From contig CAIYJU010000135.1 of the NCBI GenBank assembly GCA_903926565.1, positions 6,751-70,750 of the forward strand: a stretch of DNA of 64,000 nucleotides. Direction: 5' to 3'. Made by a program: the position numbers and the translations under genes. Below the pieces are notes generated by a model. The model made no database searches. It had not been told where the DNA came from and saw only the letters and a program-made list of their open reading frames with translations. This DNA comes from an uncultured Bacteroidales bacterium (GTDB lineage: Bacteria; Bacteroidota; Bacteroidia; Bacteroidales; FEN-979). Positions 1,401-14,968 of this stretch are shown here, one piece after another (the first letter of the stretch is position 1; every line of letters begins with the position of its first letter).

Positions 1401-1778
1401 TTACATCAGGTCACCCAGCGGACCCAGGTTGATGTTCAAATCCCGATCGGTGAGGTTAAAATGTTTTTTCAGCTCCTCCATCTTCATTTCCAGCTTCATC
1501 AGCGTTTCGCCAAGCCGTTCAATTTCCTCTTCCGATAACGAACCGCCGTCGACTCTTCGCATGGCCTGTTTTTCAACCAGTTTCCGGATAAGTTCGACAA
1601 GGGTAAGCACCAGTTTCGCCAGTCCGGAATCTGCATTTTCTGGCGTAAGCTTCAGTCTTGAATCTTCAGCTTTGGATGCCAGTTTACCGATCTCCTCTGA
1701 TATTCCATCGAACGACCCGGTGTTGAACAGTATTTTATTTTCACTCATGCAAGGACTATTGAATTTTGATTTCAACAA
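1401..1778 (-). CDS. gvpK: gas vesicle protein GvpK
   Basis: GLAKLVLTLVELIRKLVEKQAMRRVDGGSLSEEEIERLGETLMKLEMKMEELKKHF...LGPLGDLM is the GvpK signature. The true start is probably the internal Met at 1748 (MSENKIL), which removes the 23-nt overlap with the upstream gene. Confidence 0.9.
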   Translation of the reverse strand: MLKSKFNSPCMSENKILFNTGSFDGISEEIGKLASKAEDSRLKLTPENADSGLAKLVLTLVELIRKLVEKQAMRRVDGGSLSEEEIERLGETLMKLEMKMEELKKHFNLTDRDLNINLGPLGDLM

Positions 1779-2511
1779 AATTATAGGGGGGCCAGGGCCC
1801 GGTAAGGATAAAGTTTAATCCCTGATGTTTATTCTGCAAATCCTGAACGGAGCGGACCAACTGAATTTCAACATCTTTATCAAGTAAAAATACTGCATCG
1901 ATGATGTTCTTTGCAGAGGCCATTTTTTTAAATCTGCTTTCCGCGCATAACAGGGCAAGACTTACGGTGATCTCTGCAATGACTGTATCAGCGTAATCAA
2001 CAAGCAGCTCTTCAAGCCTGTGTTCTTTCAGCTTTTTATTGATATATTCCCGATACGCTGAAATTGTGATGCCCGGGTCAGCGGGCGGGCTGAGGACAGC
2101 CTCTGATTTCATCCGCAGTTCTGCCGCCAATTTTTCGGAATCACAGAATATTTTCAATCCGAATTCTTGTTTGTTTTCAACCCGGTCGAGGTTCTGAAGA
2201 AATTCATCCCGGTTACGGACAAGCATTTCCAAGATTGCACCGGATGATTCCAGGGTTGAACCAAATCGCATTGGAAGAACCGGATACCGCTGAAACAGCG
2301 CATCGATCACGCCGGCATACTCAATGGCCAGAGATTTGTCTGCAGTAAAATCACATCTTTCTATCTCGCCGGTTACGGCAGCAATTTCATCATGGAAAAC
2401 AGCAAACAAATCAGCACCTCCAAGGCCTTTCATCCCCGCCAGAAGTGAAGTTAGCCCGTCCTGATTGTGTTTGACAGATACAACGGCATATATCATCTTC
2501 TGCATTTCCAT
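1756..2511 (-). CDS. GvpF/GvpL family gas vesicle protein (paralog 5)
   Basis: 251 aa. The N-terminus (IYAVV...) and the C-terminal LTGPWPPYNFV motif are typical of GvpF/L. Confidence 0.85.
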   Translation of the reverse strand: MEMQKMIYAVVSVKHNQDGLTSLLAGMKGLGGADLFAVFHDEIAAVTGEIERCDFTADKSLAIEYAGVIDALFQRYPVLPMRFGSTLESSGAILEMLVRNRDEFLQNLDRVENKQEFGLKIFCDSEKLAAELRMKSEAVLSPPADPGITISAYREYINKKLKEHRLEELLVDYADTVIAEITVSLALLCAESRFKKMASAKNIIDAVFLLDKDVEIQLVRSVQDLQNKHQGLNFILTGPWPPYNFVEIKIQ

Positions 2512-2523
2512 GTTCAGGTTGAT

Positions 2524-2730
2524 TTATTTCTCCGTGATCATCTTGCCCGCCTTCAACTGTTCCATGGTCTCGACAGAACTCAGCATTAATTTTAAGCCGA
2601 GATAAACCAGGTCAACATCTGCAACCGAGATAACAATATCGCCCGTGAGGATGACACCTTTGTTAAGGACCCTGTCGAGCAATTCAAGGATGGTAATGTC
2701 CTTCGAACGGTCAATTACATTATCATACAT
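2524..2730 (-). CDS. small GvpA-family protein (GvpS/GvpM/GvpJ-like minor structural protein)
   Basis: 68 aa. ITILELLDRVLNKGVILTGDIVISVADVDLVYLGLKLMLSSVE matches the GvpA-fold core. The start shares 1 nt with the upstream stop (TAATG). Confidence 0.85.
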   Translation of the reverse strand: MYDNVIDRSKDITILELLDRVLNKGVILTGDIVISVADVDLVYLGLKLMLSSVETMEQLKAGKMITEK

Positions 2731-3524
2731 TACTGATTCTCTTTAATGGAGACAAAGCTGAATGGCGGCCACGGCCCGGTTCCTTCAAGTTCAAAACCGA
2801 TCCCGGCATACTTTTTCTGTAACCGGCCAAGGAGTGAAACAAATTCAATGGTTTTATCTTTAGGCAGAAGAAATGCGGCATTCAGGATCATCTTGTCATT
2901 TCTTCCCGAAAATTCTTTTGGAATAATATTAATCAGTTTGGCAGATGCGCTGAGTGCATTAAATTCATTGAAAAATTCCTGTCCGTAACTCTTGGATAAC
3001 CTGTCGATTTCAAGGTCAATCAAATCCGCTTTTTTCCTGGTTAACAGGAACGCCTTCCCCGGCGAGCTTGCCATAATCTGGTATTCGAGTTCGGCTGCTT
3101 CATGGCTCAAATTATCTATCTGTGCCTTCATGACATCCTGGTTACAGTAAAGTTTGACTGCCCATTCCTCCTTCCATTCAACAAGAAGGAGGTTTTGCAC
3201 AATTGCATTTGAGTATTCGCCCATGAATTTTTTCAGTGATTCTTCAGACCGATAGATTGTACCAAAATTGAAAGGAATGACGGTATGGTCCTCCATCAGC
3301 ATGCTGATAATCGTAACATGCGACCGAACATTCAAATCGAGCCAGGCAAGATCTGACAACTTTTTTTTCAGGTTTTCTTCCGAAAAGTCGCATTCCTGAA
3401 CATTTTTCACAACGGCGTAAAACCCTCCAGAACTTACAACCTGCAAACCTTCAAACTCCGGCCTTCCGCCAGGTTCTGACATACTTGCGGAAACGCAATA
3501 GGCATAAATCAATTCCCTGTTCAT
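2730..3524 (-). CDS. GvpF/GvpL family gas vesicle protein (paralog 4)
   Basis: 264 aa. LIYAYCV... N-terminus, MILNAAFLLPKDK motif, C-terminal GTGPWPPFSFV. Confidence 0.85.
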   Translation of the reverse strand: MNRELIYAYCVSASMSEPGGRPEFEGLQVVSSGGFYAVVKNVQECDFSEENLKKKLSDLAWLDLNVRSHVTIISMLMEDHTVIPFNFGTIYRSEESLKKFMGEYSNAIVQNLLLVEWKEEWAVKLYCNQDVMKAQIDNLSHEAAELEYQIMASSPGKAFLLTRKKADLIDLEIDRLSKSYGQEFFNEFNALSASAKLINIIPKEFSGRNDKMILNAAFLLPKDKTIEFVSLLGRLQKKYAGIGFELEGTGPWPPFSFVSIKENQ

Positions 3525-3577
3525 TACATTGGTAAAATTAGCCCCGTTACAACAACATTTCCTGTAATTAAATGCGT

Positions 3578-3850
3578 CTATTGAGAAACGCTGTCCATCC
3601 CTTCAAAGGAATTGAGTCTTTCGAAGGCGGTTATTTCCAGTTTATCATCCATCTTCACCAAATAAAAAAGCCTTACCTGTTTCGGCGGGAGGTTCATTGA
3701 TTTCAGGAAGGAATCATCCTCATAAACCTCGGCGATGGAATTCCAGTTCTCCTGAACCTTCTCAATTTTAATAACCGTAACGTCGTAACAGTTAATATTC
3801 TCTTTCAGGAAATTAACCACTGTTTTTTTCACATCGATAATATTGCTCAT
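3578..3850 (-). CDS. GvpO-like small protein
   Basis: 90 aa. The segment VTVIKIEKVQENWNSIAEVYED...LFYLVKMDDKLEITAFERL has the same layout I recall for haloarchaeal GvpO (..EGWRTVVEVVER...YEITLD..G.VTGYE..). Called from similarity by eye only. Confidence 0.5.
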   Translation of the reverse strand: MSNIIDVKKTVVNFLKENINCYDVTVIKIEKVQENWNSIAEVYEDDSFLKSMNLPPKQVRLFYLVKMDDKLEITAFERLNSFEGMDSVSQ

Positions 3851-3918
3851 TGTCTCCTCCAGTTATTTTATGTTTTCATAGTCACAGGGATGGTTTGCGG
3901 GTCTGAATGTATCCGGTG

Positions 3919-4155
3919 CTATCTGTTTTGTTTATCGGCTCTGATCCTTTCAAGTAATTTCAACAACTCGTCTTCTCTTTCGTCGTATTCCTCTTCGTTA
4001 ATTTCATCCATTTCAAATTTCAGCTGCAGGGCCATCAGCCTCTCCTTGATGGCTCCTTCATCCGACATTTCCCTGTCGATCACTTCATTTATTTTCTTCC
4101 CGATAAAAATAACTCCTTTTAACGGAGCCAACAGGATGTCGTCAATTAAAAACAT
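3919..4155 (-). CDS. gvpG: gas vesicle protein GvpG
   Basis: 78 aa. MFLIDDILLAPLKGVIFIGKKINEVIDRE...EINEEEYDEREDELLKLLE is the GvpG pattern. 1-nt gap to the upstream gene. Confidence 0.8.
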   Translation of the reverse strand: MFLIDDILLAPLKGVIFIGKKINEVIDREMSDEGAIKERLMALQLKFEMDEINEEEYDEREDELLKLLERIRADKQNR

Positions 4156-4156
4156 G

Positions 4157-4939
4157 TTAAACTCCTTTAGTCTGGATTACAAGGTTGACAAAATTATAGG
4201 GAGGCAGCGTTCCGACGTATTTGAACGTCATCAATTTCCCGTATTTTTCGTCGAGGTCGGTCACGGCCTTGTCGAAGTCCGGCTCCACCGTGTTTTTTAT
4301 GAGAAATGCCGCGTTAAGTATCATCATTTCGCCATAATTGTCGTTGATTTTCTGGTCGTCTGAAAGCGGAGTAAGAACATCCATGATCATGTTTTTGTAA
4401 TTTCCCGTCTCCTTCTTCAGCGCTTCGGCAACCATTTCGCCAATTTTCATGCGCTGATAATGTGTTTTATCGACGGGCAGGTTGATCAGTTTTCCGCGCA
4501 ATGTTTTTATTTCATCATATTTTTCAATGATACTTTCGTACAACGGGGCTTCATGTGCAAGTACCTTCAGGCCCAGTTCCTTCTTCCCATCCATTTTAAG
4601 AAGAAGGTCGTCAAATTTTTTATATTCCTTTGCCAGGATGTTCAGAAGGCCTGAATCATCGTCATATTCGGAAATGGTTGAAAACCGCACCGGGAGCACG
4701 GTGAATTGCTTCATCACCTCCTCCAGCACCTTTTCATGCGTTGTCATGTTAACCCTCCTGGCTTCATATTGTATGACCGGCGAATTACTTACAACAGCAG
4801 TGACATCCTTGTAATTGATGCCATACACCCGGTCGGAGCGGACACCAATTCCGATGGGTCCGAATTCGATCGGGCCGGAATGCCTGATAATCCCGTAAAT
4901 GTACTTTCCTTCCTTTGGTATTCCAGCTGCTTCGCTCAT
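4157..4939 (-). CDS. GvpF/GvpL family gas vesicle protein (paralog 3)
   Basis: 260 aa. KYIYGII... N-terminus, MILNAAFLIKN motif, C-terminal GTLPPYNFVNL. Confidence 0.85.
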   Translation of the reverse strand: MSEAAGIPKEGKYIYGIIRHSGPIEFGPIGIGVRSDRVYGINYKDVTAVVSNSPVIQYEARRVNMTTHEKVLEEVMKQFTVLPVRFSTISEYDDDSGLLNILAKEYKKFDDLLLKMDGKKELGLKVLAHEAPLYESIIEKYDEIKTLRGKLINLPVDKTHYQRMKIGEMVAEALKKETGNYKNMIMDVLTPLSDDQKINDNYGEMMILNAAFLIKNTVEPDFDKAVTDLDEKYGKLMTFKYVGTLPPYNFVNLVIQTKGV

Positions 4940-4961: not shown

Positions 4962-5735
4962 TTACAATTCCCATTTTTCAGGAAATATTTTAAGGTCAAT
5001 AAAATTAAAGATCGGCAGGGGTGCGGTATAAACAAAGTCGCTCCGATCCTGGTAAGTCGCGCCAATACCGGCCATGATGTTGTCAAATTCGATCTCCCTG
5101 CCGCTGTTGACCAGGAAGGCAGTATTCATGAACACCGCATCGCTGCTTGTTTTATTGTGCTTATATTCGAACACCGACCGGCGAAATGCATCAATAATGT
5201 TGTCGGACTCCTCCGCTTTCTTTTCAAGCAGAAGGCGTTCGACCATATGACCCGCTTCGTCTATCTTCATGTTCCTCTCCTTTGAGTCGCCCAGTACTTC
5301 AATTTCAGCCCTGAGCTTTTGAAGTTCAACGTGTTGCCGGTCGATTTCCTGGTAGATGACACCCATGTTTTTCCAGGTTCCCCGCACATTCAGTTCCACC
5401 TTGTTTTCGAATTGCTTCAGCAGTTCCATAAACTCACTGTACCTGCGGTTCAGGAGATTCCTGATCTCATCCGGGGTTGCTGCGATGGTGCCGAACCTGA
5501 TGGGCAGGATGCTTCTGAATTCCTTCATCACCTCTTCTATCACTTTCTGGTGGGCCAGCATGTTTTCGGGGTTGACGACAAACCGACTTAGCGGATGATC
5601 ACTCACCACCATGCACAAGCCTTCGAACCCGATGGTTGAGACAAGGTCTGCACGTCCGCCCACGCCTATCGGCCCCAGGTTGATGTCATAATCTGATGCA
5701 ATGATGCAATAAATGTATTTTCCGTCGCGCTGCAT
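4962..5735 (-). CDS. GvpF/GvpL family gas vesicle protein (paralog 2)
   Basis: 257 aa. KYIYCIIAS...GPIGVGGR...VSDHP, MNTAFLVNS motif, C-terminal PLPIFNFIDL. Confidence 0.85.
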   Translation of the reverse strand: MQRDGKYIYCIIASDYDINLGPIGVGGRADLVSTIGFEGLCMVVSDHPLSRFVVNPENMLAHQKVIEEVMKEFRSILPIRFGTIAATPDEIRNLLNRRYSEFMELLKQFENKVELNVRGTWKNMGVIYQEIDRQHVELQKLRAEIEVLGDSKERNMKIDEAGHMVERLLLEKKAEESDNIIDAFRRSVFEYKHNKTSSDAVFMNTAFLVNSGREIEFDNIMAGIGATYQDRSDFVYTAPLPIFNFIDLKIFPEKWEL

Positions 5736-5736
5736 A

Positions 5737-6777
5737 TTAATCCTTTATTTTAACCAAAATCAAATTCCCGGCAACATCTTCCTTCGCCAGGGATATTACT
5801 TCATCTTTAACCGACTGTCTGACTGAAGCAGCATAGTCAAGCAGGGAGTGGTAGGCCTCAAGGATGATGTTGAAATTCTCAGTATCACTGCTGTCGTGAT
5901 TGTTGTCGGGATGAAATTGCTTTGCTTTTTCCAGGTAGGCCCTTTTTATCTCCTGCTCGGATATTTTCTCCCTGACACCCAGCGCTTTCCGTGCCTGATC
6001 TACCTTGTCGGCATTCAACGCAACAACCTCCAGCGTGAAAAAACTGTAACAGGGCAACGGGCCTATCAGTTTAAAATTCAGGACCCCCTGGTATTTTTCG
6101 TCAAGCATGTCAATTGCATGCTCAAACTTTTCCCTTTTATTCCTGTTTATTAAAAATGCAGAATTTAAGATCATCTCGTCATTCATCACTTCATGCATTT
6201 TGATATCGAGGCCGTAAGGGGATAATACATCCAGCACCTTCAGCTCAACATCCTTATTTTCGGTATCCAACCTCTCTTTTATCAGCATACCTACTTTTAC
6301 CTGATCAACTTTTGTCAGGGCATGATTGTTTTGCAAGAGTTCGACTTTCAGCGCATTGATTTCGGGATGGGTGGAAATATCCTGAAGCAGCCCGGGAAAA
6401 TCACCCCATGTTACAACCAGGTCTATTTCAGTCAGGTACTCAATCTTCTTCAGGGCATCTATGATCAGATCATGACCACAGGTAAGAATTTTGAGCACCT
6501 CATCCGTTGAAGTTACGATGGTGCCAAGCCTCATTGGGAGGATCATGGTGAATCCCTTCCGCTGGAGTTCTTCGATGGTTTCCTGGTGATGGACCAGCAA
6601 ATAAGCCAGGGATTCCCTGTCTGAAAAATTGACTTCGGAGCTGTCTCTTTCTGAAACAATGGCCGAAATATTTTGAAACGTAACCGCATAAACTCCCGAA
6701 TTTTCAAGAGTTTGAAATTGGGTTGTACCATAAAAATTGGGCACAATCCCATAGATGTATAATCCTTTTGCTGTCAT
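5737..6777 (-). CDS. GvpF/GvpL family protein fused to a C-terminal DnaJ-type J-domain
   Basis: 346 aa. Residues 1-250 are GvpF/L-like (LYIYGIV..., MILNSAFLINRNK, GPLPCYSFFTL). Residues about 258-320 read ARKALGVREKISEQEIKRAYLEKAKQFHPDNNHD..ENFNIILEAYHSLLD, a J-domain. The HPD tripeptide is at nt 5913-5905, verified on the DNA. Confidence 0.8.
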   Translation of the reverse strand: MTAKGLYIYGIVPNFYGTTQFQTLENSGVYAVTFQNISAIVSERDSSEVNFSDRESLAYLLVHHQETIEELQRKGFTMILPMRLGTIVTSTDEVLKILTCGHDLIIDALKKIEYLTEIDLVVTWGDFPGLLQDISTHPEINALKVELLQNNHALTKVDQVKVGMLIKERLDTENKDVELKVLDVLSPYGLDIKMHEVMNDEMILNSAFLINRNKREKFEHAIDMLDEKYQGVLNFKLIGPLPCYSFFTLEVVALNADKVDQARKALGVREKISEQEIKRAYLEKAKQFHPDNNHDSSDTENFNIILEAYHSLLDYAASVRQSVKDEVISLAKEDVAGNLILVKIKD

Positions 6778-9008: not shown

Positions 9009-9944
9009 TTATTCAAACAGGCACATTTTCAACTTATTCAGAGCATCCAGCCCTTTTATCTCTTCTGCGAACCTTTGCACTTCAACTTTGTTTAAATGAC
9101 GAAAGGTTTCGTTGATGCCGGTTAAATAAGGCAATTGGCTGGCTTTGCTCCGCCTGCAGAATCCGCATTCATCCGAAACCATCACATTGTTTACAATGAG
9201 CTGTCGTGCAACGATACCAGAACTGGCAAGAATCGACAGCAATCTTTCTGTTTCCCTCATTGCCATTGCTTCCGGAATGCAAACCGGGATAAATTCACAC
9301 CGGGTTGCATCGCGCAGGATGTTTTCAATCCTTTTGACAGTCCTTTTCAGGCTGAGTAAAAGCACATCCACGTCATCATGCTGGTAGGATCCTGAAAAAC
9401 TGGTGATCATGTACCGGTATTTCCACCTCATTCTTGCAGCCACCTTGATCCAGTCGTCCAATAACTTCGGAGAAGATATCAACCTTAAGGCATGCCCGGT
9501 GGGTGCAGTATCCACAACATATTTATCGTATTCCCCCTGTTCCATGAAATCGGTGATGGTTTTAAAACTCATCACCTCGTCGATGCCGGGAATCGACAGG
9601 GCAAGCATCTCTTCAATATCCTGGTTATCAAGATTTGTTGAAGTTTCGAGCAACTTTTTCAGTTCAGCCTGATGCGCACTGATAAATACTGAAAGCGCCT
9701 CGTCGGCAAATACTTCAATCGCAGAGAGGTTGGGGCTGCCATCTACTTTAACTACCTGGAATCCAATTTTCTGACCAAGGCAATCCGACACGGAATGCGC
9801 CGGATCAGTTGAGATAAGCAATGTTTTAAAATTTTCAGCCAGTGACATGGCTGTGGCAACGGCACAACTGGTTTTTCCAACACCGCCTTTTCCGCCAAAA
9901 ATGAGAAGTTTCAGGTCGCTGTTATCTAAGCCCTTCAGTCCCAT
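9009..9944 (-). CDS. ArsA/Get3(TRC40)-family P-loop ATPase
   Basis: 311 aa. Deviant Walker A GGKGGVGKTS, STDPAHSVSD, switch II DTAPTGHALRL, and a Get3-style CxxC (SDECGFCRR). 4-nt gap to hsp20 and 9-nt gap to the cdc48-like gene. Confidence 0.85.
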   Translation of the reverse strand: MGLKGLDNSDLKLLIFGGKGGVGKTSCAVATAMSLAENFKTLLISTDPAHSVSDCLGQKIGFQVVKVDGSPNLSAIEVFADEALSVFISAHQAELKKLLETSTNLDNQDIEEMLALSIPGIDEVMSFKTITDFMEQGEYDKYVVDTAPTGHALRLISSPKLLDDWIKVAARMRWKYRYMITSFSGSYQHDDVDVLLLSLKRTVKRIENILRDATRCEFIPVCIPEAMAMRETERLLSILASSGIVARQLIVNNVMVSDECGFCRRSKASQLPYLTGINETFRHLNKVEVQRFAEEIKGLDALNKLKMCLFE

Positions 9945-9948: not shown

Positions 9949-10467
9949 CTATTTTTTTATCCTGATCTCAAGGATGCCGTTTGTAAATTTATGCCTTAGA
10001 TTTTTCCTTTCGGCTTTTTCAGGAAGCAGCACTTCCTTGCGGTATGACCTGCTTTTGTTGACTGCTGAAATTTCAAGGATATCTTCTTTCAAATCAATAA
10101 CAATGTCATTTTCCTCGATTCCCGGCATTTCTGCAATAATCACAAGTTCATTCTTTTCATTAAAGATGTCGGTAATGGGTTCCCGTTCTTCATCCACTTT
10201 GGGTCCCTCGGGTGTTTTTTTGATATTGCCGAAAGTTTCTACTTTCGGGCTTCCGCCAACTGCCGTGTTTATTGTAAAGCCATAGACACCTTTCATTCCT
10301 TTTTTGATGTGGTCAAAATTGAGCTCCCCTTCCTTTTTAATGCCACCCTTTTCATCGAGTTTCCCTGCAAGGTCAACAAGTTTCTCAATACCTTTGAACA
10401 GATCACCAAGTCCGAAAAATCCGGTATCGGCTTCGTCCTTTTTTTTATTATTCTTATCGTTGTCCAT
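9949..10467 (-). CDS. Hsp20/alpha-crystallin family small heat-shock protein (GvpH-position protein)
   Basis: 172 aa. C-terminal alpha-crystallin domain ELVIIAEMPGIEENDIVIDLKEDILEISA...RKEVLLPEKAE...KFTNGILEIRIKK. Confidence 0.8.
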   Translation of the reverse strand: MDNDKNNKKKDEADTGFFGLGDLFKGIEKLVDLAGKLDEKGGIKKEGELNFDHIKKGMKGVYGFTINTAVGGSPKVETFGNIKKTPEGPKVDEEREPITDIFNEKNELVIIAEMPGIEENDIVIDLKEDILEISAVNKSRSYRKEVLLPEKAERKNLRHKFTNGILEIRIKK

Positions 10468-10529: not shown

Positions 10530-10829
10530 TTACTCCGGCCTGTTCATCGCCTCCAGTTTCTCCAGACGCGACACCAGCTCTTCCTGGTGCTGCATCAGCT
10601 CCTTCTCCCTGGCTTTTGTTGAAAGGTACGTATCTTCCTGCCACCAGTTGATCCCCATCTCCATCGCCTTGTCGACCGAAGCGATCAGCAACCTGATTTT
10701 GATGGTCAGCAGATCAATATCCGCTATCTGAATTTTTATATCTCCTGCAATTACGATTCCCTTGTCGAGGACTCTTTCAAGAATATCGGCAAGACCTGTC
10801 GCCTGAATGGAGTGGGTAGGTTCTGACAT
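10530..10829 (-). CDS. gvpJ: gas vesicle protein GvpJ (GvpA family with C-terminal extension)
   Basis: 99 aa. LADILERVLDKGIVIAGDIKIQIADIDLLTIKIRLLIASVDKAMEMGINWW is the GvpJ-type core. Confidence 0.85.
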   Translation of the reverse strand: MSEPTHSIQATGLADILERVLDKGIVIAGDIKIQIADIDLLTIKIRLLIASVDKAMEMGINWWQEDTYLSTKAREKELMQHQEELVSRLEKLEAMNRPE

Positions 10830-10839: not shown

Positions 10840-11154
10840 TTAATAATCTATTGACATGGTCTTCCATGCTTTCTCATCATCCTTCTTTGGTTTTTTACTC
10901 TTTTCTGCAGGTTTGACGGAATGCATGTCCCCGGCTTTTTCATCATAATAGGCCTGGATCTCTTTCAGCCTGTCCTGGATGATTTCAAGTCTCAGTAAGA
11001 TCCGGACCTCTTCACTTTTCAGCCGGGTTCTCTCCTTTTCGAACATGTACAATTTTATAAAATCCGAATCTTCCTTGTTTGGAATACCCGATTTAACGAC
11101 ATTCTGCATGCTCTTGATGCTCTGAAGTCCCTTTAGTGCAGTTGATATTGGCAT
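10840..11154 (-). CDS. small coiled-coil protein directly downstream of gvpN (possible GvpV-position analog), function unknown
   Basis: 104 aa. Heptad-like central segment (LYMFEKERTRLKSEEVRILLRLEIIQDRLKEIQ) and a Lys-rich tail. Tightly packed in the operon. No family recognised with confidence. Confidence 0.55.
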   Translation of the reverse strand: MPISTALKGLQSIKSMQNVVKSGIPNKEDSDFIKLYMFEKERTRLKSEEVRILLRLEIIQDRLKEIQAYYDEKAGDMHSVKPAEKSKKPKKDDEKAWKTMSIDY

Positions 11155-11182: not shown

Positions 11183-12118
11183 TTATTGCGCAATTTTTAA
11201 ACTGGTGTATTGTTCTATCAGTTCGTTCACGATGAATTTCACCTTTTCCTGGTTGGTTTTTGAGCCAATCCTGCTGGTTTCTGACGTAAGAATATCCTGG
11301 CAGATTTTCCGGAACATATCTTTTGATTTCGAGGGTGTTGTTTTCAGGGTTGCCAGTGTTTTGGCAATCATGATGGAACCGCGGATGGTCGGATCGAATT
11401 CCGTTTTCCCTGATTCACGCAAACCTCTCACAATTTTAACGATAATTTCGGTATCCTTTAACGACAATTGCGATTTGGCCCTGGTAATCTGCAATTCGGT
11501 TTCATAGTCGAAATGGTCCAGGTCCATGGTCACCATGCGGTCGCGCAGTGCATCCTGCGTGCGGTTAACACCGGCATACTCTTCAGGGTTTGACGTAAAG
11601 ATGGCACGGAATTCAGGGTGTACCTTCATATAGTAATCCTCCTCCTTTGCTGCCGATGTGCTTAACATCCGCTCCTGAAGAATCGGAAGCAGGATATTGT
11701 TGGCCTCAGGACGTGAACGCGTAAATTCATCGTAGATCAGGGTGAACCCGTTTTTCACTGCGATGGTTAAACGGTTGTTCACCCATTGCTTGGTCATGTC
11801 CTCTTCATACTTATGAACAGAATGGATGAATTTGTCGTCAAGCTTTTTATATTTATACCCCTGTTCACTTCCGATCAAATCGGAAGTTTTATACTCGGCA
11901 TCACCATGGATAATGACAACAGGCCGGCCGATTTTACTTGCCAGGTGCATGGCTACCGTCGTTTTCCCGGTACCTGAAGGCCCCCTGAAATGAACCGGGA
12001 ATCCAGCCTGGATATACGTAAGGCCGCGGCTGGTGATGTCCCTTATGTAATCCGTTTCTACAAAATTGGACATCGGCTTCAGTTCAAGCACGGTATTCAT
12101 CTCATTGTTGTTGCTCAT
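11183..12118 (-). CDS. gvpN: gas vesicle protein GvpN (MoxR/CbbQ-like AAA+ ATPase)
   Basis: 311 aa. FVETDYIRDITSRGLTYIQAGFPVHFRGPSGTGKTTVAMHLA... and Walker B LIYDEFTRS are typical GvpN features. Confidence 0.9.
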   Translation of the reverse strand: MSNNNEMNTVLELKPMSNFVETDYIRDITSRGLTYIQAGFPVHFRGPSGTGKTTVAMHLASKIGRPVVIIHGDAEYKTSDLIGSEQGYKYKKLDDKFIHSVHKYEEDMTKQWVNNRLTIAVKNGFTLIYDEFTRSRPEANNILLPILQERMLSTSAAKEEDYYMKVHPEFRAIFTSNPEEYAGVNRTQDALRDRMVTMDLDHFDYETELQITRAKSQLSLKDTEIIVKIVRGLRESGKTEFDPTIRGSIMIAKTLATLKTTPSKSKDMFRKICQDILTSETSRIGSKTNQEKVKFIVNELIEQYTSLKIAQ

Positions 12119-12163: not shown

Positions 12164-12343
12164 TTAAAAAGGCAGGTTCGGCAGCTGCTTCAGCGTCTCC
12201 TCCCAGATGGTCCTGGCTTCCTCAATCTCCTTTGTTATCTCTTCCCTTGCTGTCAGGAACGCGATCTTCCTTTCCCTGAACCTTTCCAGTGCAGCCTGCC
12301 GTTTGATCATGCTGTTCCTGATACCCGCTCCGACGTTTTTCAT
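12164..12343 (-). CDS. unlisted 59-aa ORF between the zinc-finger gene and gvpN (hypothetical)
   Basis: Below the ORF-track length cutoff. Hand translation: MKNVGAGIRNSMIKRQAALERFRERKIAFLTAREEITKEIEEARTIWEETLKQLPNLPF, stop TAA at 12166-12164. Same strand as the operon, 15 nt after the upstream stop and 45 nt before the gvpN ATG. Confidence 0.35.
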   Translation of the reverse strand: MKNVGAGIRNSMIKRQAALERFRERKIAFLTAREEITKEIEEARTIWEETLKQLPNLPF

Positions 12344-12358
12344 TTTCAGATACCCTGA

Positions 12359-12673
12359 TCAGGCGCCAAACCCTTTGCCTTTGCATTGCGTGCACGGCAG
12401 GTTATCTCCTGATTTGCCAGTCCCTTTGCATTTCAGGCACACATTGCTGCCGGCAACGTGATTGCTCCCTTTTCCGCTACACACAATACACGGCACCCTT
12501 GCTCCCAGCGGGTTTTTACCGGACCCGGCACAAAAAACGCATTTCATCAAGGGTTTCTCAACATTCACACGTCCGAGGCCATTGCATGCCAGGCAATGTG
12601 AGATTGAGGAAAGCAGGTCAAAAGGATCCTTGCCTGTGCCGCTGCAAAACGGGCAATTAAAAACTTCTATCAT
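12359..12673 (-). CDS. stand-alone DnaJ-type cysteine-rich zinc-finger protein (six CxxCxGxG repeats)
   Basis: 104 aa containing CPFCSGTG, CLACNGLG, CVFCAGSG, CIVCSGKG, CLKCKGTG and CTQCKGKG. This is the CxxCxGxG repeat of the DnaJ central domain, with no J-domain or C-terminal domains. Confidence 0.8.
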   Translation of the reverse strand: MIEVFNCPFCSGTGKDPFDLLSSISHCLACNGLGRVNVEKPLMKCVFCAGSGKNPLGARVPCIVCSGKGSNHVAGSNVCLKCKGTGKSGDNLPCTQCKGKGFGA

Positions 12674-12713
12674 GGGGCAAAATCATTTGGAAAATGAATG
12701 ACGAAGAACCGGG

Positions 12714-13922
12714 TTATTTCAACGGGAAGTAAATGTTGTCAATTTTCTGCACTTTACCCTCGTCGAGCAAACCTTTGGCGGTAAAGCCAAGTTTCATGCG
12801 TGTTTCTCCCAGTGGTGCTTCCATCTCCGAGATCTTTACGCCCTTGGGATGTTTATTAATAAAATCCAGCACCTTATCTTCAAGTTTCAGGGGCTCTTCC
12901 TTAAATGTGGCAAATGCAAGAACTTCCTGGGCCGGAACGGCACTTACTGCCTCAGCCGGGGCTGCCTTTGCAGGGGCTGCAGGGGCCTCTTTTTTCGCCT
13001 CCTGTTTTTCAGCTTTCTTCGGTGCCTGTTTGGGTGCGGGAACAACGCCAGTTTTCCTGATATGGTCCATCGCACTTTTCATTTTATTCCATTCGGCCGA
13101 TGCCTCAACCCGGTTTTGCAGCAGATCATCCAGCATTGCACCGGTTGATTTCTGTACATCCCTGACCTCTTTCCGGATATCTTTAATAGAGACATGAATG
13201 CCTTTCATGATTGCATTAAAATCGCTGATCCGTTCGTTTTCGCCTTTGGCAAGATCTTTTCTCAGTTTCTGGGCCATTTTCTGGTTTTCCCTGCCGATTT
13301 CCGACAATCTTTTCTGGAACCCGGAAAGCAGGGTCCTCGTGTACTCAACCCTTTCTCCAAGGTTCTTGGCAAGTTCCGCTCTCAGTTCTGCCGACATGTC
13401 CTGATGTTCCTTTTCAAACCGGTCGAGCATATCATTCGTATTCAGGAAAATTGCCGAAACTTCATCATTGATACTTTTGATATCAGCATTGATGTTTGTC
13501 ATGAGGGCATCAAACTCCTTCATACGTGTTTTTTCATTTTGCGCCCGTCCGGCTCTTTCTTCAGCAAAGGACTTCCCAAGTTCCTCAGCCATCTGCGACC
13601 GCTCAACGGTAAATTCATTGATCATGTTAAACGTGGAAGTTTGAATCGCCACTACTTCCTTCTGGATGGAGGCAATTGTTCCATGGATTCCTGTCATTAA
13701 TCCCTTGAAGTTGCCCAGCCGTTCTTTCTCCCCGCGGGCGAGGCCTTTTCTTAATGCAGCAGCATTTGCATTTAAAGCGGCAGCCATCTCCTGGTGGTCC
13801 TTGCGGAAACCGTCAAGCGTTATCTGCACATCGTTAACAAGTTCTTCATTTTCCCTGATGCGCTGCCTGAATGATGCAAGCAACTCTTCTGTCAGGTTCT
13901 TCATGTCTGATGCTAGTCCCAT
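12714..13922 (-). CDS. repeat-containing coiled-coil protein with Pro/Ala/Lys linker and small C-terminal globular (winged-helix-like?) domain; candidate non-canonical GvpC analog
   Basis: 402 aa. Internal repeats are visible by eye: RKGLARGEKERLGNFKGLMTGIHGTIASIQKEVVAIQTST vs RKDLAKGENERISDFNAIMKGIHVSIKDIRKEVRDVQKST vs RAQNEKTRMKEFDALMTNINADIKSINDEVSAIFLNT. Also FRKDHQEMAAAL vs FEKEHQDMSAEL. These are followed by APKQAPKKAEKQEAKKEAPAAPAKAAPAEA and a roughly 60-aa tail. Confidence 0.75.
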   Translation of the reverse strand: MGLASDMKNLTEELLASFRQRIRENEELVNDVQITLDGFRKDHQEMAAALNANAAALRKGLARGEKERLGNFKGLMTGIHGTIASIQKEVVAIQTSTFNMINEFTVERSQMAEELGKSFAEERAGRAQNEKTRMKEFDALMTNINADIKSINDEVSAIFLNTNDMLDRFEKEHQDMSAELRAELAKNLGERVEYTRTLLSGFQKRLSEIGRENQKMAQKLRKDLAKGENERISDFNAIMKGIHVSIKDIRKEVRDVQKSTGAMLDDLLQNRVEASAEWNKMKSAMDHIRKTGVVPAPKQAPKKAEKQEAKKEAPAAPAKAAPAEAVSAVPAQEVLAFATFKEEPLKLEDKVLDFINKHPKGVKISEMEAPLGETRMKLGFTAKGLLDEGKVQKIDNIYFPLK

Positions 13923-13964
13923 GTTGTTATCTCCTATTTTAGAATTATTGATATGTTACCTGAA

Positions 13965-14621
13965 TTAATTGATCTCCTTGATAATTTGATTTTTTATGCT
14001 TTTTATATCTTTTACCTGGATCTGATCGCCTTTTTCGAGCAAACTTTCCAGGCACTCCATCATCCTGCCGTGCATGTTCTGAAAATCCATGAAGGTCTTC
14101 ATTACTGTTTCCTTCCTCATTTCCTGTACTTTAGAAACCTGGGAAAGTTGCTCCTTGATGATGTTGATTTTTTCGGTGGCATCCTGCGATGTAATGTCCC
14201 TGATGCCGAGCAGGCTTAATTTAAGCGACTGGGCAGTCTCTTTCTGGGATTCGATAAATGAGAGGAACAAAATTTCAGCGGCCCGTTCTTTTTCGTCGAG
14301 CGCGCAAAGAATGCCTGACATCATCGAATAATAATCCTTTTTACGGAGGGATCCGTTTTTTGCCATAATTTCACAAATTCTGAAATTCAGGACTTCCCGC
14401 TCCTTTTTCAGATCGTTGAGAGAATTATGCACGTTGTCGAACAGGCAGTGCGATGATTCTGTAATATTTTCAGATGACTGGAAAGCTGTTTGAATTTTTT
14501 GAATGCGGGTTTCGTAGGAGGTTATGATGTTGTCAAAAAAACCATCGATGTTTAATTCGGGCAGTGGATTCATTCTTGGTAGTTTATTTGCAGGTTTTCG
14601 GGAAAGATGACTTTTTGACAT
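13965..14621 (-). CDS. coiled-coil protein, distant paralog of the 402-aa repeat protein; function unknown
   Basis: 218 aa. Shares motifs with the neighbour: TSYETRIQK vs ASFRQRIRE, and MAKNGSLRKKDYYSMMSGI vs LAKGENERISDFNAIMKGI. It is the first gene after gvpA. The start may instead be the Met at codon 17. Confidence 0.7.
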   Translation of the reverse strand: MSKSHLSRKPANKLPRMNPLPELNIDGFFDNIITSYETRIQKIQTAFQSSENITESSHCLFDNVHNSLNDLKKEREVLNFRICEIMAKNGSLRKKDYYSMMSGILCALDEKERAAEILFLSFIESQKETAQSLKLSLLGIRDITSQDATEKINIIKEQLSQVSKVQEMRKETVMKTFMDFQNMHGRMMECLESLLEKGDQIQVKDIKSIKNQIIKEIN

Positions 14622-14764
14622 TCCCTCATGATAATTATCGGGCCGGGGGTTGGTGTGATCGGGATACTGCAGGCGTGGAAAAAAGAAATTCTTGGTAACT
14701 CATGCTTTCGTGAATAATCAGGGAAGGATGTTTTAGCAAGAATAGCTGTTAATCTGAATGCAAA

Positions 14765-14968
14765 TTAAGCTGCTTTTGCAGTTAATCCGATGGCTTCAGC
14801 ATACTTCAGGTATGTTTCAACAGAGGCAACAACGATTCTTGCTTCAATTGCAAGCAATTCGATACCTACCAAAGAAACTCTTACCCATGCATCAACTACA
14901 ACACCTTTGTCAAGGATACGGTCGATAACTTCAACGAGGCTTGATGATCCGATAGTCTTTTCTACCAT
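14765..14968 (-). CDS. gvpA: major gas vesicle structural protein GvpA
   Basis: 67 aa. [55 protein letters not shown] is near-canonical GvpA. An SD-like GGAG sits about 9 nt upstream of the ATG, which is unusual for this window. Confidence 0.97.

What the first reader, a model, noticed from the sequence alone, without database searches (positions are those of the whole stretch)
1401..14968. Twenty-gene single-strand gas-vesicle operon, about a third of it non-canonical
There are twenty consecutive minus-strand ORFs from gvpA (14968) to gvpK (1401). Gaps are mostly under 70 nt (largest 143 nt) and several starts overlap the preceding stop, which suggests one transcription unit. The recognisable core is GvpA, GvpJ, a third GvpA-family protein, GvpN, GvpG, GvpK, a GvpO-like protein and five GvpF/L paralogs. 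I see no 33-residue-repeat GvpC. Seven or eight genes fall outside the canonical haloarchaeal, cyanobacterial, Bacillus or Serratia gvp sets as I know them: Hsp20, a Get3/ArsA-like ATPase, a Cdc48-like ATPase, a zinc-finger protein, two repeat proteins and two small ORFs. One of the five GvpF/L paralogs also carries a J-domain fusion. The cluster sits between housekeeping carA and a sigma54 two-component pair.
Basis: partly seen in the sequence, partly recalled or inferred. Interest (0 to 1): 0.75.

Follow-up and report, generated by a model that had tools for sequence, protein, structure and literature searches.

The report
Gas-vesicle gene cluster with built-in chaperones
This is an intact 20-gene gas-vesicle (buoyancy organelle) cluster of the type shared by Bacteroidota and green sulfur bacteria; it is ordinary for its lineage, but it carries an unstudied set of chaperone and unfoldase genes (Hsp20, Get3, Cdc48, J-domain, zinc finger) that recurs in gas-vesicle clusters of many phyla.

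Summary

(1) The cluster is not unusual. All 20 genes occur in the same order in about 60 Bacteroidales genomes, in cultured gas-vacuolate Polaribacter filamentus and, minus two genes, in Chlorobiaceae.

(2) Several "non-canonical" genes belong to named Gvp families. Hsp20 is GvpH-like. The 104-aa ORF after gvpN is GvpV-like. The 402-aa repeat protein is a distant GvpC-like protein, modelled as one 288-residue helix plus a winged-helix domain. The GvpO-like call is supported. ArsA plus Hsp20 in such clusters was published in 2010.

(3) The locus is larger than reported. A hybrid kinase and a sigma54 activator are conserved directly upstream. gvpA has a sigma54-type promoter, a conserved pseudoknot-like 5' leader and a hairpin with a U-run after it. 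"One operon" is therefore doubtful.

(4) What remains unstudied is the proteostasis set: Hsp20, Get3, Cdc48, a J-domain on one GvpF/L, and a six-motif DnaJ-type zinc finger. Hsp20–Cdc48 pairs sit in gvp clusters of at least six other phyla, and I found no paper describing this.

Verdict: a new member of a known kind, of moderate interest.

The parts
16655..20059 (-). Hybrid histidine kinase (receiver, several PAS domains, HisKA, HATPase), 1134 aa. Probable sensor for gas-vesicle expression.
   Evidence: Pfam. Conserved directly upstream of the regulator and gvpA, on the same strand, in about 35 loci (41-70% identity). Nothing further upstream is conserved.
15255..16646 (-). NtrC-type sigma54 enhancer-binding response regulator (receiver, Sigma54_activat, HTH_8), 463 aa.
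   Evidence: Pfam. 72-80% identical and adjacent to gvpA in about 35 Bacteroidales loci. Analogous regulators lie next to gvp genes in Methylosinus and other Alphaproteobacteria.
15157..15173 (-). Terminator-like hairpin plus T-run after the regulator gene.
   Evidence: Pattern scan, (CCACGCATTCCGTGTGG then TAATTTTTTT). Suggests that gvpA has its own promoter.
15047..15061 (-). Sigma54-type -24/-12 promoter-like element CGGCTCACCCTTTGT (GG at -24; TTGT instead of TTGC at -12).
   Evidence: A YGG..-N5-TTGY match ends 12-15 nt upstream of the conserved leader in 30 of 42 loci, against 0.3% of shuffled windows. Matches are canonical in many relatives, e.g. TGGCACTCCCTTTGC (L007) and Polaribacter TGGCATTGTATTTGC.
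15000..15031 (-). Conserved 5' leader element of gvpA, AAGAGGTAAACCGTCCCTCATGTAAAGCACGG. Candidate H-type pseudoknot with S1 15029-15026/15016-13 and S2 15021-18/15003-00.
   Evidence: It occurs once in the window, before every gvpA copy in 63 loci, and in Chlorobiaceae and Polaribacter. All 256 pair cells are paired, with compensatory changes at two pairs and a two-sided U-A insertion (CCUGU/ACAGG). No Rfam family matches.
14765..14968 (-). gvpA, the major shell protein, 67 aa.
   Evidence: NF006874 131.7 bits (cut-off 100) and PF00741. 86% identical to Nostoc GvpA.
14679..14743 (-). Long imperfect hairpin followed by TTCTTTTTT just after gvpA. Candidate leaky terminator or 3' stabiliser.
   Evidence: Fold. 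A strict pattern is found in 17 of 79 loci, and similar hairpins occur in L002, L006, L027 and Polaribacter.
13965..14573 (-). g02, a 202-aa all-helical protein of unknown function (the ORF extends to 14621). Specific to gvp clusters.
   Evidence: 608 homologues, all unnamed and without Pfam domains. Syntenic in all loci. The model is a 5-helix bundle with pTM 0.59. No significant PDB match.
12714..13922 (-). g03, a GvpC-like rod protein. It has three ~78-aa repeats, a Pro/Ala/Lys linker and a C-terminal winged-helix domain.
   Evidence: Repeats at z 12-20. The profile hits Nostoc GvpC at 29 bits against a shuffle maximum of 8.6; hhalign P 1.8e-4. The model has a helix over residues 4-291 and a winged helix over 347-400, with rmsd 1.1-1.6 A to Zalpha, IclR and MarR winged helices. 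No PF01304 hit.
12359..12673 (-). g04, a free-standing DnaJ-type zinc-finger protein with six CXXCXGXG motifs, 104 aa.
   Evidence: PF00684 39.2 bits (cut-off 32.7). Six motifs here; five or six in 84 orthologues. Absent from Chlorobiaceae loci. A 39% match occurs in an Isosphaeraceae gvp cluster.
12164..12343 (-). g05, a 59-aa conserved small protein of unknown function.
   Evidence: Syntenic in most Bacteroidales loci and in Polaribacter (37-69% identity). No family match.
11183..12118 (-). gvpN, AAA+ ATPase.
   Evidence: TIGR02640 346 bits (cut-off 266.8). Walker A GPSGTGKT and Walker B LIYDE.
10840..11154 (-). g07, a GvpV-like coiled-coil protein, 104 aa.
   Evidence: The profile hits the ORF after gvpN in Spartinivicinus (25 bits), the Nostoc protein at the GvpV position (21.5) and an Octadecabacter ORF (13.6). 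The shuffle maximum is 8.7. hhalign P 1.4e-4.
10530..10829 (-). GvpJ-like GvpA-family protein, 99 aa.
   Evidence: PF00741 62 bits; best NCBIfam hit is halo_gas_GvpJ.
9949..10467 (-). Hsp20 / GvpH-like small heat-shock protein, 172 aa.
   Evidence: PF00011 32 bits (cut-off 20.8). Archaeal Hsp20 NF041800 133.9 bits (cut-off 140). The profile hits Methylosinus GvpH at 6e-20 and Halobacterium GvpH at 5e-6.
9009..9944 (-). Single-domain Get3/TRC40-like ATPase, 311 aa.
   Evidence: TIGR00345 248.5 bits (cut-off 135). ArsA equivalog 111 against 650, so not met. Best PDB matches are Chlamydomonas ARSA1 and archaeal or fungal Get3. CGFC aligns with the Get3 CXXC.
6840..8999 (-). Cdc48/VAT-type double-ring AAA+ ATPase with an N domain, 719 aa.
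   Evidence: TIGR01243 907 bits (cut-off 803), with CDC48_N and CDC48_2. Best PDB match is Thermoplasma VAT at 754 bits. Two Walker A/B pairs. 50% identical to Cdc48 genes inside gvp clusters of other phyla.
5737..6777 (-). GvpF/L paralogue with a C-terminal J domain, 346 aa.
   Evidence: PF06386 159.6 bits plus PF00226 48.3 bits. HPD is present in 88 of 88 orthologues, and the same fusion occurs in Octadecabacter.
4962..5735 (-). GvpF/L paralogue, 257 aa.
   Evidence: PF06386 175.8 bits.
4157..4939 (-). GvpF/L paralogue, the most GvpF-like, 260 aa.
   Evidence: PF06386 202.3 bits. Best match to Nostoc and Halobacterium GvpF.
3919..4155 (-). gvpG, 78 aa.
   Evidence: PF05120 70.6 bits.
3578..3850 (-). 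GvpO-like protein, 90 aa.
   Evidence: PF05800 17.1 bits, below the cut-off of 25. However, 15 of 15 orthologues hit GvpO, best 8.5e-8. The profile hits Halobacterium GvpO at E 0.0056.
2730..3524 (-). GvpF/L paralogue (GvpL-like), 264 aa.
   Evidence: PF06386 156.4 bits. NCBIfam GvpL 61.7 bits.
2524..2730 (-). GvpM/S-like GvpA-family protein, 68 aa.
   Evidence: PF00741 57.8 bits; best NCBIfam hit is halo_gas_GvpM.
1756..2511 (-). GvpF/L paralogue (GvpL/W-like), 251 aa.
   Evidence: PF06386 156.3 bits.
1401..1778 (-). gvpK. The probable true start is the ATG at 1748.
   Evidence: PF05121 118.1 bits. The ORF list gives a TTG start at 1778.

Best explanation
The region is an intact gas-vesicle (gvp) locus of the Bacteroidota/Chlorobiota type, in a freshwater Prolixibacteraceae-like bacterium. 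It spans 22 genes (window 1401-20059).

Proposed working, with my estimate for each step:

1. Regulation (inferred, ~0.7). A PAS-rich hybrid kinase and an NtrC-type activator switch on a sigma54-type promoter in front of gvpA.

2. Transcript structure (inferred, ~0.5). The gvpA transcript starts with a conserved small pseudoknot-like leader and ends at a hairpin plus U-run. This would keep gvpA mRNA far more abundant than read-through into the 19 downstream genes.

3. Shell and core machinery (by homology to studied systems, ~0.9). GvpA builds the shell. GvpJ- and GvpM/S-like proteins, five GvpF/L paralogues, GvpG, GvpK and GvpO form the nucleation and assembly machinery. GvpN powers growth.

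4. Outer reinforcement (inferred, ~0.55). The 402-aa protein lies along the outer surface like GvpC, as one ~43-nm amphipathic helix made of three 78-aa repeats.

5. Dedicated proteostasis module (inferred from domains and cross-phylum gene linkage, ~0.5 overall; the individual roles are guesses). This module handles the very hydrophobic, aggregation-prone GvpA-family subunits:
- the Hsp20/GvpH-like holdase keeps them soluble;
- the Get3-like ATPase shields their hydrophobic faces;
- the J domain on one GvpF/L recruits the cell's Hsp70 to the assembly complex;
- the six-motif DnaJ-type zinc-finger protein binds unfolded clients;
- the Cdc48/VAT-type unfoldase extracts or unfolds mis-assembled or collapsed shell protein.
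For: Family assignments above curated cut-offs.

All 20 genes occur in the same order in about 60 Bacteroidales loci, in Polaribacter filamentus ATCC 700397 and, minus g04 and g05, in Chlorobiaceae.

The kinase and regulator are conserved next to gvpA. A sigma54-type motif sits at a fixed distance from the leader in 30 of 42 loci. The leader is found only before gvpA copies, with compensatory changes. A hairpin plus U-run follows gvpA.

For g03: repeats, a GvpC profile hit, a long-helix model, and the gvpC position between gvpA and gvpN.

Get3 CXXC is conserved. Cdc48 is full length with an N domain. HPD is present in 88 of 88 orthologues.

Hsp20 lies directly before Cdc48 inside gvp clusters of Alphaproteobacteria, Planctomycetota, Myxococcota, Firmicutes, Chloroheliaceae and Melainabacteria, in about 34 loci. 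Archaeal Cdc48 loci have no gvp genes.

ArsA plus an AAA ATPase 49% identical to g11 sit next to Nostoc gvp genes.

GvpH prevents GvpM aggregation in Haloferax (PMC6107691). Heterologous gas-vesicle expression causes proteotoxic stress (PMC12848028 abstract).
Against: There are no expression or phenotype data for this organism.

The window's -12 element reads TTGT, not TTGC. Twelve of 42 loci lack the simple sigma54 match.

Leader covariation is thin: three compensatory cells plus one paired insertion. The region is almost invariant, so a protein-binding DNA or RNA site is not excluded.

g03 fails Pfam GvpC, and hhalign probability is only ~49%.

Prolixibacteraceae JC049 keeps the cluster but lacks Hsp20 and Cdc48. 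Model systems (Halobacterium, Bacillus, Serratia) need no Cdc48 or Get3. The module is therefore dispensable or auxiliary.

Four deltaproteobacterial Cdc48 loci show no gvp genes within 10 kb.
Confidence: 0.75

Rival explanations
1. The chaperone and ATPase genes (Hsp20, Get3, Cdc48, zinc finger) are general stress genes that merely sit inside the cluster and have no gas-vesicle-specific role.
For: They belong to broad housekeeping families. JC049 lacks Hsp20 and Cdc48 yet keeps the rest of the cluster. The studied model clusters lack them (review PMC9501494).
Against: Their position is fixed across more than 100 genomes. The Hsp20-Cdc48 pair recurs inside gvp clusters of at least six other phyla, while archaeal homologues are not gvp-linked. 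The J domain is fused to a GvpF/L protein itself, with HPD in 88 of 88 orthologues.
Confidence: 0.1
2. The 20 genes are not one operon. gvpA is essentially monocistronic (own sigma54 promoter, terminator after it), and the downstream genes are transcribed by read-through and/or internal promoters in two or more units.
For: There is a 191-nt gap with a hairpin plus U-run after gvpA. [quoted passage not shown] Gaps of 53-68 nt precede g09, g12, g16 and g17.
Against: No convincing conserved terminator was found further inside. The strong hairpin after Cdc48 is present only in close relatives, and many loci have gaps of 2-10 nt there. The sigma70-type scan gave no more sites than shuffles (21 against 21), though Bacteroidota promoters are not covered by it.
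Confidence: 0.5
3. The Cdc48/Get3/Hsp20 module serves disassembly, not assembly. It would clear and recycle the insoluble GvpA sheets left when vesicles collapse under turgor or hydrostatic pressure.
For: Cdc48/VAT enzymes are unfoldases and segregases (established knowledge). Collapse leaves large protein sheets, per the abstract of bioRxiv 10.64898/2026.05.31.729101. The hosts are stratified-lake and sea-ice organisms that regulate depth (record titles).
Against: There is no direct evidence. No protease partner gene is seen in the cluster.
Confidence: 0.25
4. The cluster is a silent relic in this organism, as reported for Anabaena PCC 7120.
For: The genome is known only from metagenomes, so no vesicles have been observed. 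PMC7204071 shows that intact-looking clusters can be non-productive.
Against: All 22 reading frames are intact and match orthologue lengths. The promoter and leader are conserved. The same cluster is present in gas-vacuolate Polaribacter filamentus.
Confidence: 0.08

Closest known systems
gvp clusters of Polaribacter (P. irgensii 23-P, P. filamentus) and Pelodictyon/Chlorobium, as described by Castillo & Saier 2010 (PMC2963123)
   Same: The gene families match: gvpN, several gvpL/F, G, J, K, M, plus hsp20 and an arsA homologue. In P. filamentus all 20 genes plus the kinase and regulator are in the same order.
   Different: The 2010 paper did not list the Cdc48 ATPase, the J-domain fusion, the zinc-finger protein, g02, g03, g05 or g07. 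It also described gvp-linked ArsA homologues as two-domain, ~600-aa proteins, whereas this one has a single domain of 311 aa.
Serratia sp. ATCC 39006 gvp locus (gvpA1-gvpC-gvpN-gvpV..., with GvrA/B/C regulators)
   Same: The order gvpA, surface protein, gvpN, gvpV-like; multiple gvpA-family and gvpF/L genes; an NtrC-type regulator with a kinase. The Serratia organisation is taken from my own knowledge and from PMC9501494.
   Different: Serratia has no Hsp20, Get3, Cdc48, J-domain or zinc-finger genes. Here the regulators lie upstream of gvpA.
Alphaproteobacterial gvp clusters (Methylosinus sp. C49 plasmid pMSC49b, Methylocapsa polymorpha RX1 and others)
   Same: A sigma54 regulator plus PAS kinase, a sigma54-type promoter before gvpA, gvpN, F/L, G, J and K, then GvpH/Hsp20 and a CDC48-family ATPase 50% identical to g11.
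   Different: Fewer GvpF/L paralogues. No Get3, no zinc finger, no g02 or g03 homologues detectable, and a different leader sequence.
Cyanobacterial gvp cluster (Nostoc/Anabaena: gvpA-A-C-N-J-K-F-G-V-W, followed by arsA and an AAA ATPase)
   Same: GvpA is 86% identical. GvpV-like and GvpC-like relatives are detectable. An ArsA-family ATPase and a Cdc48-D1D2-like AAA ATPase (49% identity) lie adjacent.
   Different: The cyanobacterial GvpC has 33-residue repeats and matches Pfam PF01304. Its ArsA has two domains, its AAA ATPase lacks the Cdc48 N domain, and there is no Hsp20.
Haloarchaeal p-vac/c-vac region (gvpACNO / gvpDEFGHIJKLM)
   Same: GvpA, C-like, N, O, F, G, H-like, J, K, L and M equivalents are all present.
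   Different: No GvpD, E or I. Regulation is by a sigma54 two-component pair instead of GvpD/E. Extra Get3, Cdc48, J-domain and zinc-finger genes are present, all on a single strand.
Dedicated assembly chaperones with DnaJ-type zinc fingers (plant BSD2 for Rubisco) and the Get3/TRC40 pathway
   Same: Domain types: CXXCXGXG repeats, and a Get3 fold with CXXC. The idea is the same: a client-specific holdase for a hydrophobic or aggregation-prone subunit (my own knowledge).
   Different: There is no sequence-level orthology and no membrane receptor genes (Get1/2) are visible. The client here would be a soluble-to-shell protein, not a tail-anchored membrane protein.

Membership tests
Gas-vesicle (gvp) gene cluster | GvpA major shell protein | tested here: met
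   NF006874 131.7 bits against cut-off 100; PF00741.
Gas-vesicle (gvp) gene cluster | Conserved accessory set GvpF/L, GvpG, GvpK, GvpN and GvpJ/M-type proteins | tested here: met
   All are above Pfam or NCBIfam cut-offs.
Gas-vesicle (gvp) gene cluster | Formation of gas-filled vesicles | not testable with these tools
   Indirect only: the same 20-gene order occurs in Polaribacter filamentus ATCC 700397, which I know as a gas-vacuolate species from its published description.
GvpC (outer-surface reinforcing protein) | Match to the GvpC repeat model (Pfam PF01304, 33-residue repeats) | tested here: not met
   No hit for g03 or for 18 orthologues at E<=0.1.
GvpC (outer-surface reinforcing protein) | Repeat-built elongated amphipathic helix encoded between gvpA and gvpN, with sequence relation to a known GvpC | tested here: inconclusive
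   Three 78-aa repeats. A 288-residue helix in the model. Profile against Nostoc GvpC 29 bits with a shuffle maximum of 8.6, but hhalign probability only 49%.
GvpV | Homology to the small protein encoded after gvpN (Serratia type) or at the gvpV position (cyanobacteria) | tested here: inconclusive
   No library model exists. The g07 profile gives 25.2, 21.5 and 13.6 bits to such ORFs in three gvp clusters, with a shuffle maximum of 8.7. hhalign probability 52%.
GvpO | Pfam PF05800 above the gathering score | tested here: inconclusive
   The window protein scores 17.1 bits against 25. All 15 of 15 orthologues hit the family, best E 8.5e-8.
GvpH / Hsp20 | Alpha-crystallin domain and homology to proteins named GvpH | tested here: met
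   PF00011 32 bits against 20.8. The profile hits Methylosinus GvpH at 6e-20 and Halobacterium GvpH at 5e-6. The archaeal Hsp20 equivalog is just missed, 133.9 against 140.
Get3/TRC40 | TIGR00345 above cut-off, deviant Walker A, and the CXXC zinc motif at the dimer interface | tested here: met
   248.5 bits against 135. GKGGVGKT and DTAPTGH present. CGFC aligns with CDFC, CEFC and CEQC of solved Get3 structures.
Get3/TRC40 | Binds and targets tail-anchored or hydrophobic clients | not testable with these tools
ArsA arsenical pump ATPase | Two-domain protein reaching the ArsA equivalog score | tested here: not met
   Single domain of 311 aa. TIGR04291 111 bits against 650.
CDC48/VAT/p97 AAA+ ATPase | N domain (double-psi barrel plus beta-clam) and two AAA modules, above the TIGR01243 cut-off | tested here: met
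   907 bits against 803. CDC48_N 89.7 and CDC48_2 38.7 bits. Two Walker A/B pairs. VAT 754 bits over the full length.
J-domain co-chaperone | J domain with the HPD motif | tested here: met
   PF00226 48.3 bits against 27.8. HPD in 88 of 88 orthologues.
DnaJ-type zinc-finger protein | CXXCXGXG repeats matching PF00684 | tested here: met
   39.2 bits against 32.7. Six motifs.
Sigma54-dependent regulon (GvrA-like control) | Adjacent enhancer-binding protein and a -24/-12 promoter before the target gene | tested here: inconclusive
   The enhancer-binding-protein domains are met. The motif is present in 30 of 42 loci at a fixed position, but the window's -12 element is TTGT. No transcript data.
Any described RNA family (Rfam 15) for the gvpA leader | Match at the gathering score | tested here: not met
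   None found in the window region or in 7 loci. The best match is freshwater-2 at 17.4 bits against 49.9, E 4.7, taken as chance.

The most novel reading that the evidence does not exclude
Bacterial Cdc48/VAT-type unfoldases are, in large part, gas-vesicle proteins. An Hsp20(GvpH-like)-Cdc48 pair forms a dedicated, cross-phylum proteostasis pathway that delivers, quality-controls or recycles the amyloid-like shell protein GvpA. In this cluster the pair is extended by a Get3-like ATPase, a J domain fused to GvpF/L and a DnaJ-type zinc-finger protein. A second unexcluded element is a new small pseudoknot RNA at the 5' end of sigma54-driven gvpA mRNAs.
Probability: 0.4. Interest if true: 0.65.

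Novelty: new member of a known kind. Interest (0 to 1): 0.42.

Why it matters
How cells keep the extremely hydrophobic GvpA soluble, feed it into a growing shell and dispose of collapsed shells is an open question. Poor folding and proteotoxic stress also limit the use of gas vesicles as acoustic reporter genes in foreign hosts (PMC12848028).

Clusters like this one bring their own holdase, targeting-type ATPase, Hsp70 recruiter and unfoldase. They are therefore natural test beds for these questions and possible sources of helper genes.

The cross-phylum Hsp20-Cdc48 linkage also offers a functional context for the rare bacterial Cdc48 homologues. For this particular window, however, the cluster is simply the standard one of its lineage.

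Tried and rejected
- Rfam search of the gvpA upstream region and of seven loci gave nothing at gathering score. The weak freshwater-2 hit (E 4.7) was dismissed.
- Pfam GvpC (PF01304) gave no hit on g03 or its orthologues. The hits found were only sub-threshold amphipathic-helix families: DUF948, apolipoprotein and phasin.
- g02 and g03 were tested as paralogues. Smith-Waterman z scores were 0.4-2.0, so this was rejected.
- Foldseek of the g02 model gave no match at E<=0.001. The BAR/Pil1-like hits have TM 0.35-0.41 and are not trusted.
- Profiles of g02, g04 and g05 found nothing in five distant gvp clusters.
- The strong hairpin after the Cdc48 gene was considered as an operon boundary. It was rejected because it is present only in close relatives.
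- The sigma70-type promoter scan was uninformative, with 21 sites against 21 expected.
- The apparent TGGCAC just upstream of the leader in the window has no -12 partner. The real sigma54-type motif is 15 nt further upstream.
- An ATG-TAA mini-ORF inside the leader is not conserved.
- Conservation of carA or of genes upstream of the kinase was tested and not found.
- Ten full-text searches found no paper on Cdc48, the J-domain fusion or the zinc finger in gvp clusters. Subscription literature could not be searched.

Full report
**Observation.** The ORF list and my translation show exactly twenty consecutive minus-strand ORFs from 14968 to 1401. Gaps are 143, 42, 40, 15, 45, 28, 10, 62, 4, 9, 62, 1, 22, 1, 68, 53, -1, 12 and -23 nt.

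Two starts are probably shorter than the maximal ORF. Public gene calls start the second gene at Met17 (202 aa), which makes the gap after gvpA 191 nt. gvpK has an ATG at 1748 that removes the 23-nt overlap.

Pfam and NCBIfam give the following:
- GvpA (NF006874, 131.7 bits against 100) and GvpN (TIGR02640, 346 against 267).
- A GvpJ-like and a GvpM/S-like GvpA-family protein.
- Five GvpL/GvpF proteins (156-202 bits), plus GvpG and GvpK.
- A weak GvpO hit (17.1 bits against 25).
- Hsp20.
- A TRC40/GET3/ArsA-family ATPase (248.5 against 135).
- A CDC48-family ATPase (907 against 803, with both N-domain halves).
- A DnaJ-type CXXCXGXG zinc finger.
- A J domain on the first GvpF/L.

Four ORFs (g02, g03, g05, g07) have no family above threshold. 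carA lies downstream, and a sigma54 response regulator and a PAS-rich hybrid kinase lie upstream.

**Who has it.** A scan of one genome per species with GvpN found a 100% match in an uncultured Draconibacterium (Prolixibacteraceae) MAG. It also found 79 further loci, mostly Bacteroidales MAGs from stratified lakes, plus Chlorobiaceae at 84-85% GvpN identity.

tblastn of all 20 proteins against these loci shows the same 20 genes in the same order wherever the contig is long enough. The Chlorobiaceae loci lack only g04 and g05. A few loci carry two gvpA copies or an insertion of extra gvpF/L-, J- and K-like genes after g07.

A second scan seeded from a Chlorobiaceae GvpN added three cultured strains:
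- Polaribacter filamentus ATCC 700397 has kinase, regulator and all 20 genes in order.
- Chlorobium phaeovibrioides BrKhr17 shows the same order on a contig that ends early.
- Prolixibacteraceae strain JC049 has the same cluster without Hsp20, Cdc48, g04 and g05.

The architecture is therefore the standard gvp locus of Bacteroidota and Chlorobiota, not a peculiarity of this window.

**True limits and regulation.** The regulator (72-80% identity) and the kinase are adjacent to gvpA on the same strand in about 35 loci. carA and the genes beyond the kinase are not conserved. A terminator-like hairpin follows the regulator gene.

Aligning the 320 nt upstream of gvpA from 42 loci shows two conserved blocks.

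The first block is a sigma54-type -24/-12 element. It reads CGGCTCACCCTTTGT in the window (15061-15047), TGGCACTCCCTTTGC in L007, TGGCACACTATATGC in Chlorobiaceae and TGGCATTGTATTTGC in Polaribacter. A loose pattern is met in 30 of 42 loci, ending 12-15 nt before the second block, against 0.3% of shuffled windows.

The second block is a nearly invariant 32-nt element, AAGAGGTAAACCGTCCCTCATGTAAAGCACGG (15031-15000). It would sit at the very 5' end of the transcript. It can form two interleaved 4-bp helices, GAGG/CCUC and CCGU/ACGG. On 32 distinct sequences all 256 cells pair, two pairs show double changes, and no shifted register comes close.

More distant loci add AAGG/CCUU and a two-sided insertion, CCUGU/ACAGG. 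The element occurs only before gvpA, and before each copy where there are two. It matches no Rfam family.

Downstream of gvpA a long imperfect hairpin is followed by TTCTTTTTT. [quoted passage not shown] A single 13.6-kb operon is therefore not established. A highly expressed gvpA with partial read-through is at least as likely.

**The "non-canonical" genes.** I compared profiles built from 66-100 orthologues with all ORFs of five annotated plasmid-borne gvp clusters: Octadecabacter, Spartinivicinus, Nostoc, Methylosinus and Halobacterium.

- *Hsp20 (g09).* It hits the Methylosinus protein named GvpH (6e-20), the Octadecabacter Hsp20 in the same position (8e-28) and Halobacterium GvpH (5e-6). 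It is a GvpH-type protein. GvpH is reported to prevent GvpM aggregation (PMC6107691).
- *g16.* All 15 of 15 orthologues hit Pfam GvpO.
- *g07.* It lies directly after gvpN. It hits the ORF after gvpN in Spartinivicinus (25 bits), an unannotated ORF after gvpN in Octadecabacter (13.6 bits), and the Nostoc "gas vesicle protein" at the gvpV position (21.5 bits). One thousand shuffles never exceed 8.7 bits, and hhalign gives P 1.4e-4. I read it as GvpV-like.
- *g03.* It lies between gvpA and gvpN, where gvpC lies elsewhere. It contains three ~78-residue repeats (z 12-20). Its profile scores 29 bits on Nostoc GvpC (shuffle maximum 8.6, reversed 0), with hhalign P 1.8e-4. AlphaFold models residues 4-291 as one continuous helix, followed by a disordered Pro/Ala/Lys linker and a confident winged-helix domain. 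That domain superposes on Zalpha, IclR and MarR winged helices at 1.1-1.6 A. It fails Pfam GvpC. I call it GvpC-like in working, with membership unproven.
- *g02.* It is a 5-helix bundle (pTM 0.59) with no significant structural or sequence relative and no repeats.
- *g04.* It has six CXXCXGXG motifs.
- *g05.* It remains a conserved 59-aa unknown.

**The ATPases and the J domain.** g10 is Get3-like, not ArsA. It is single-domain. Its best solved relatives are Chlamydomonas ARSA1 and archaeal and fungal Get3. Its CGFC aligns with the Get3 CXXC zinc motif, and the ArsA equivalog score is far from met.

g11 is a complete Cdc48/VAT enzyme.

The J domain of g12 keeps HPD in 88 of 88 orthologues. 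The same GvpF/L-J fusion exists in Octadecabacter.

The Methylosinus plasmid cluster ends with GvpH and a CDC48-family ATPase 50% identical to g11. In Nostoc, a two-domain ArsA and an AAA ATPase (49% identical to g11's D1-D2) follow gvpW.

A scan seeded with the Methylosinus Cdc48 returned 80 loci:
- About 34 bacterial loci carry gvp genes, nearly always with Hsp20 directly before Cdc48. They come from Alphaproteobacteria (including cultured Methylocapsa polymorpha), Isosphaeraceae, Myxococcota, Firmicutes, Chloroheliaceae, Melainabacteria and a second Prolixibacteraceae type.
- The roughly 35 archaeal loci carry none.
- Four deltaproteobacterial loci carry none.

Several of these clusters also show sigma54-type promoters before gvpA.

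**Literature.** ArsA homologues and hsp20 in gvp clusters of Polaribacter irgensii, Pelodictyon luteolum, Geobacter and cyanobacteria were reported in 2010 (PMC2963123). A Prosthecochloris paper mentions "apolipoprotein" and "myocilin-like" genes in its gvp cluster (PMC10158934). I infer, without testing it, that these correspond to g03 and g02.

A 2022 review of Gvp proteins mentions none of Hsp20, Cdc48, Get3, J-domain or zinc-finger genes. Full-text searches for gas vesicle together with Cdc48 returned only unrelated haloarchaeal papers. I could not search subscription journals.

**Mechanism.** What rests on homology to studied systems is this: GvpA forms the shell; GvpJ/M-type, GvpF/L, G, K and O proteins nucleate and organise assembly; GvpN supports growth.

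What is inferred here:
- sigma54 and two-component control of gvpA;
- a structured leader and a leaky terminator that set the gvpA-to-accessory ratio;
- g03 as the outer reinforcing rod;
- a dedicated proteostasis module for the hydrophobic GvpA-family subunits, made of an Hsp20 holdase, a Get3-like shield, Hsp70 recruitment through the GvpF/L J domain, a zinc-finger client binder and a Cdc48 unfoldase for mis-assembled or collapsed shell.

The gene linkage across phyla is strong evidence that the module is gas-vesicle related. The individual roles are guesses. Its absence from strain JC049 and from the model systems shows that it is auxiliary.

**Verdict.** It is a new member of a known and widespread cluster type. 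About half of the supposed outsiders fall into named Gvp families or were already reported.

The parts worth following up are general rather than specific to this window: the Hsp20-Cdc48(-Get3) module, the GvpF/L-J fusion, the zinc-finger protein, the GvpC-like rod with a winged-helix end, and the gvpA leader RNA.

Noticed in passing
window 15000-15031 (-); also L112 about 7050-7090, L071 and L088 upstream of gvpA: A nearly invariant 32-nt element sits at the predicted 5' end of gvpA mRNA. It can fold as a small H-type pseudoknot, is found only before gvpA copies in Bacteroidales, Polaribacter and Chlorobiaceae, and is not in Rfam. Its function is unknown (mRNA stability, translation control or ligand sensing).
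   Followed up: partly
window 15047-15061 (-): A sigma54-type -24/-12 promoter lies at a fixed distance from the leader. The same promoter type precedes gvpA in Alphaproteobacteria and Myxococcota clusters (L126, L130, L144, L148).
   Followed up: partly
L125-L204: Most bacterial relatives of this Cdc48 lie inside gvp clusters directly after an Hsp20 gene, across at least six phyla. Archaeal relatives are not gvp-linked. The Hsp20, Get3 and Cdc48 genes all score best against archaeal or eukaryotic-type models, which hints at an archaeal origin of the module.
   Followed up: partly
L071-L080, L081-L094 versus the window: GvpN (84-85%), Cdc48 (~79%) and GvpA (98%) are very similar between Bacteroidales and Chlorobiaceae MAGs from the same kinds of lakes, while other genes of the cluster are only 27-45% identical. 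This could reflect uneven constraint or partial horizontal exchange between phyla.
   Followed up: no
L036, L038, L049, L061, L063, L065, L105, L107, L108: A variant of the cluster carries an insertion of extra gvpF/L-, gvpA/J- and gvpK-like genes between g07 and g08.
   Followed up: no
window 6778-6839 (-): A strong 13-bp hairpin (-24 kcal/mol) lies between the Cdc48 gene and the GvpF/L-J gene. It is shared only with close relatives (L001, L002, L008) and absent from most loci.
   Followed up: partly
window 12714-12880 (-), C-terminal ~55 aa of g03: The GvpC-like rod ends in a highly conserved winged-helix domain, a fold usually used for nucleic-acid or protein docking. Its partner is unknown. 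Haloarchaeal GvpC also ends in a globular (zinc-finger) domain.
   Followed up: partly
L112 12234-13153: In Polaribacter filamentus the Get3-like gene gives two tblastn pieces and a shortened ORF (231 aa). This may be a frameshift or an assembly error.
   Followed up: no
L146 (Isosphaeraceae MAG): A 39% match to the zinc-finger protein g04 lies inside a planctomycete gvp cluster, so this gene is not confined to Bacteroidota.
   Followed up: no
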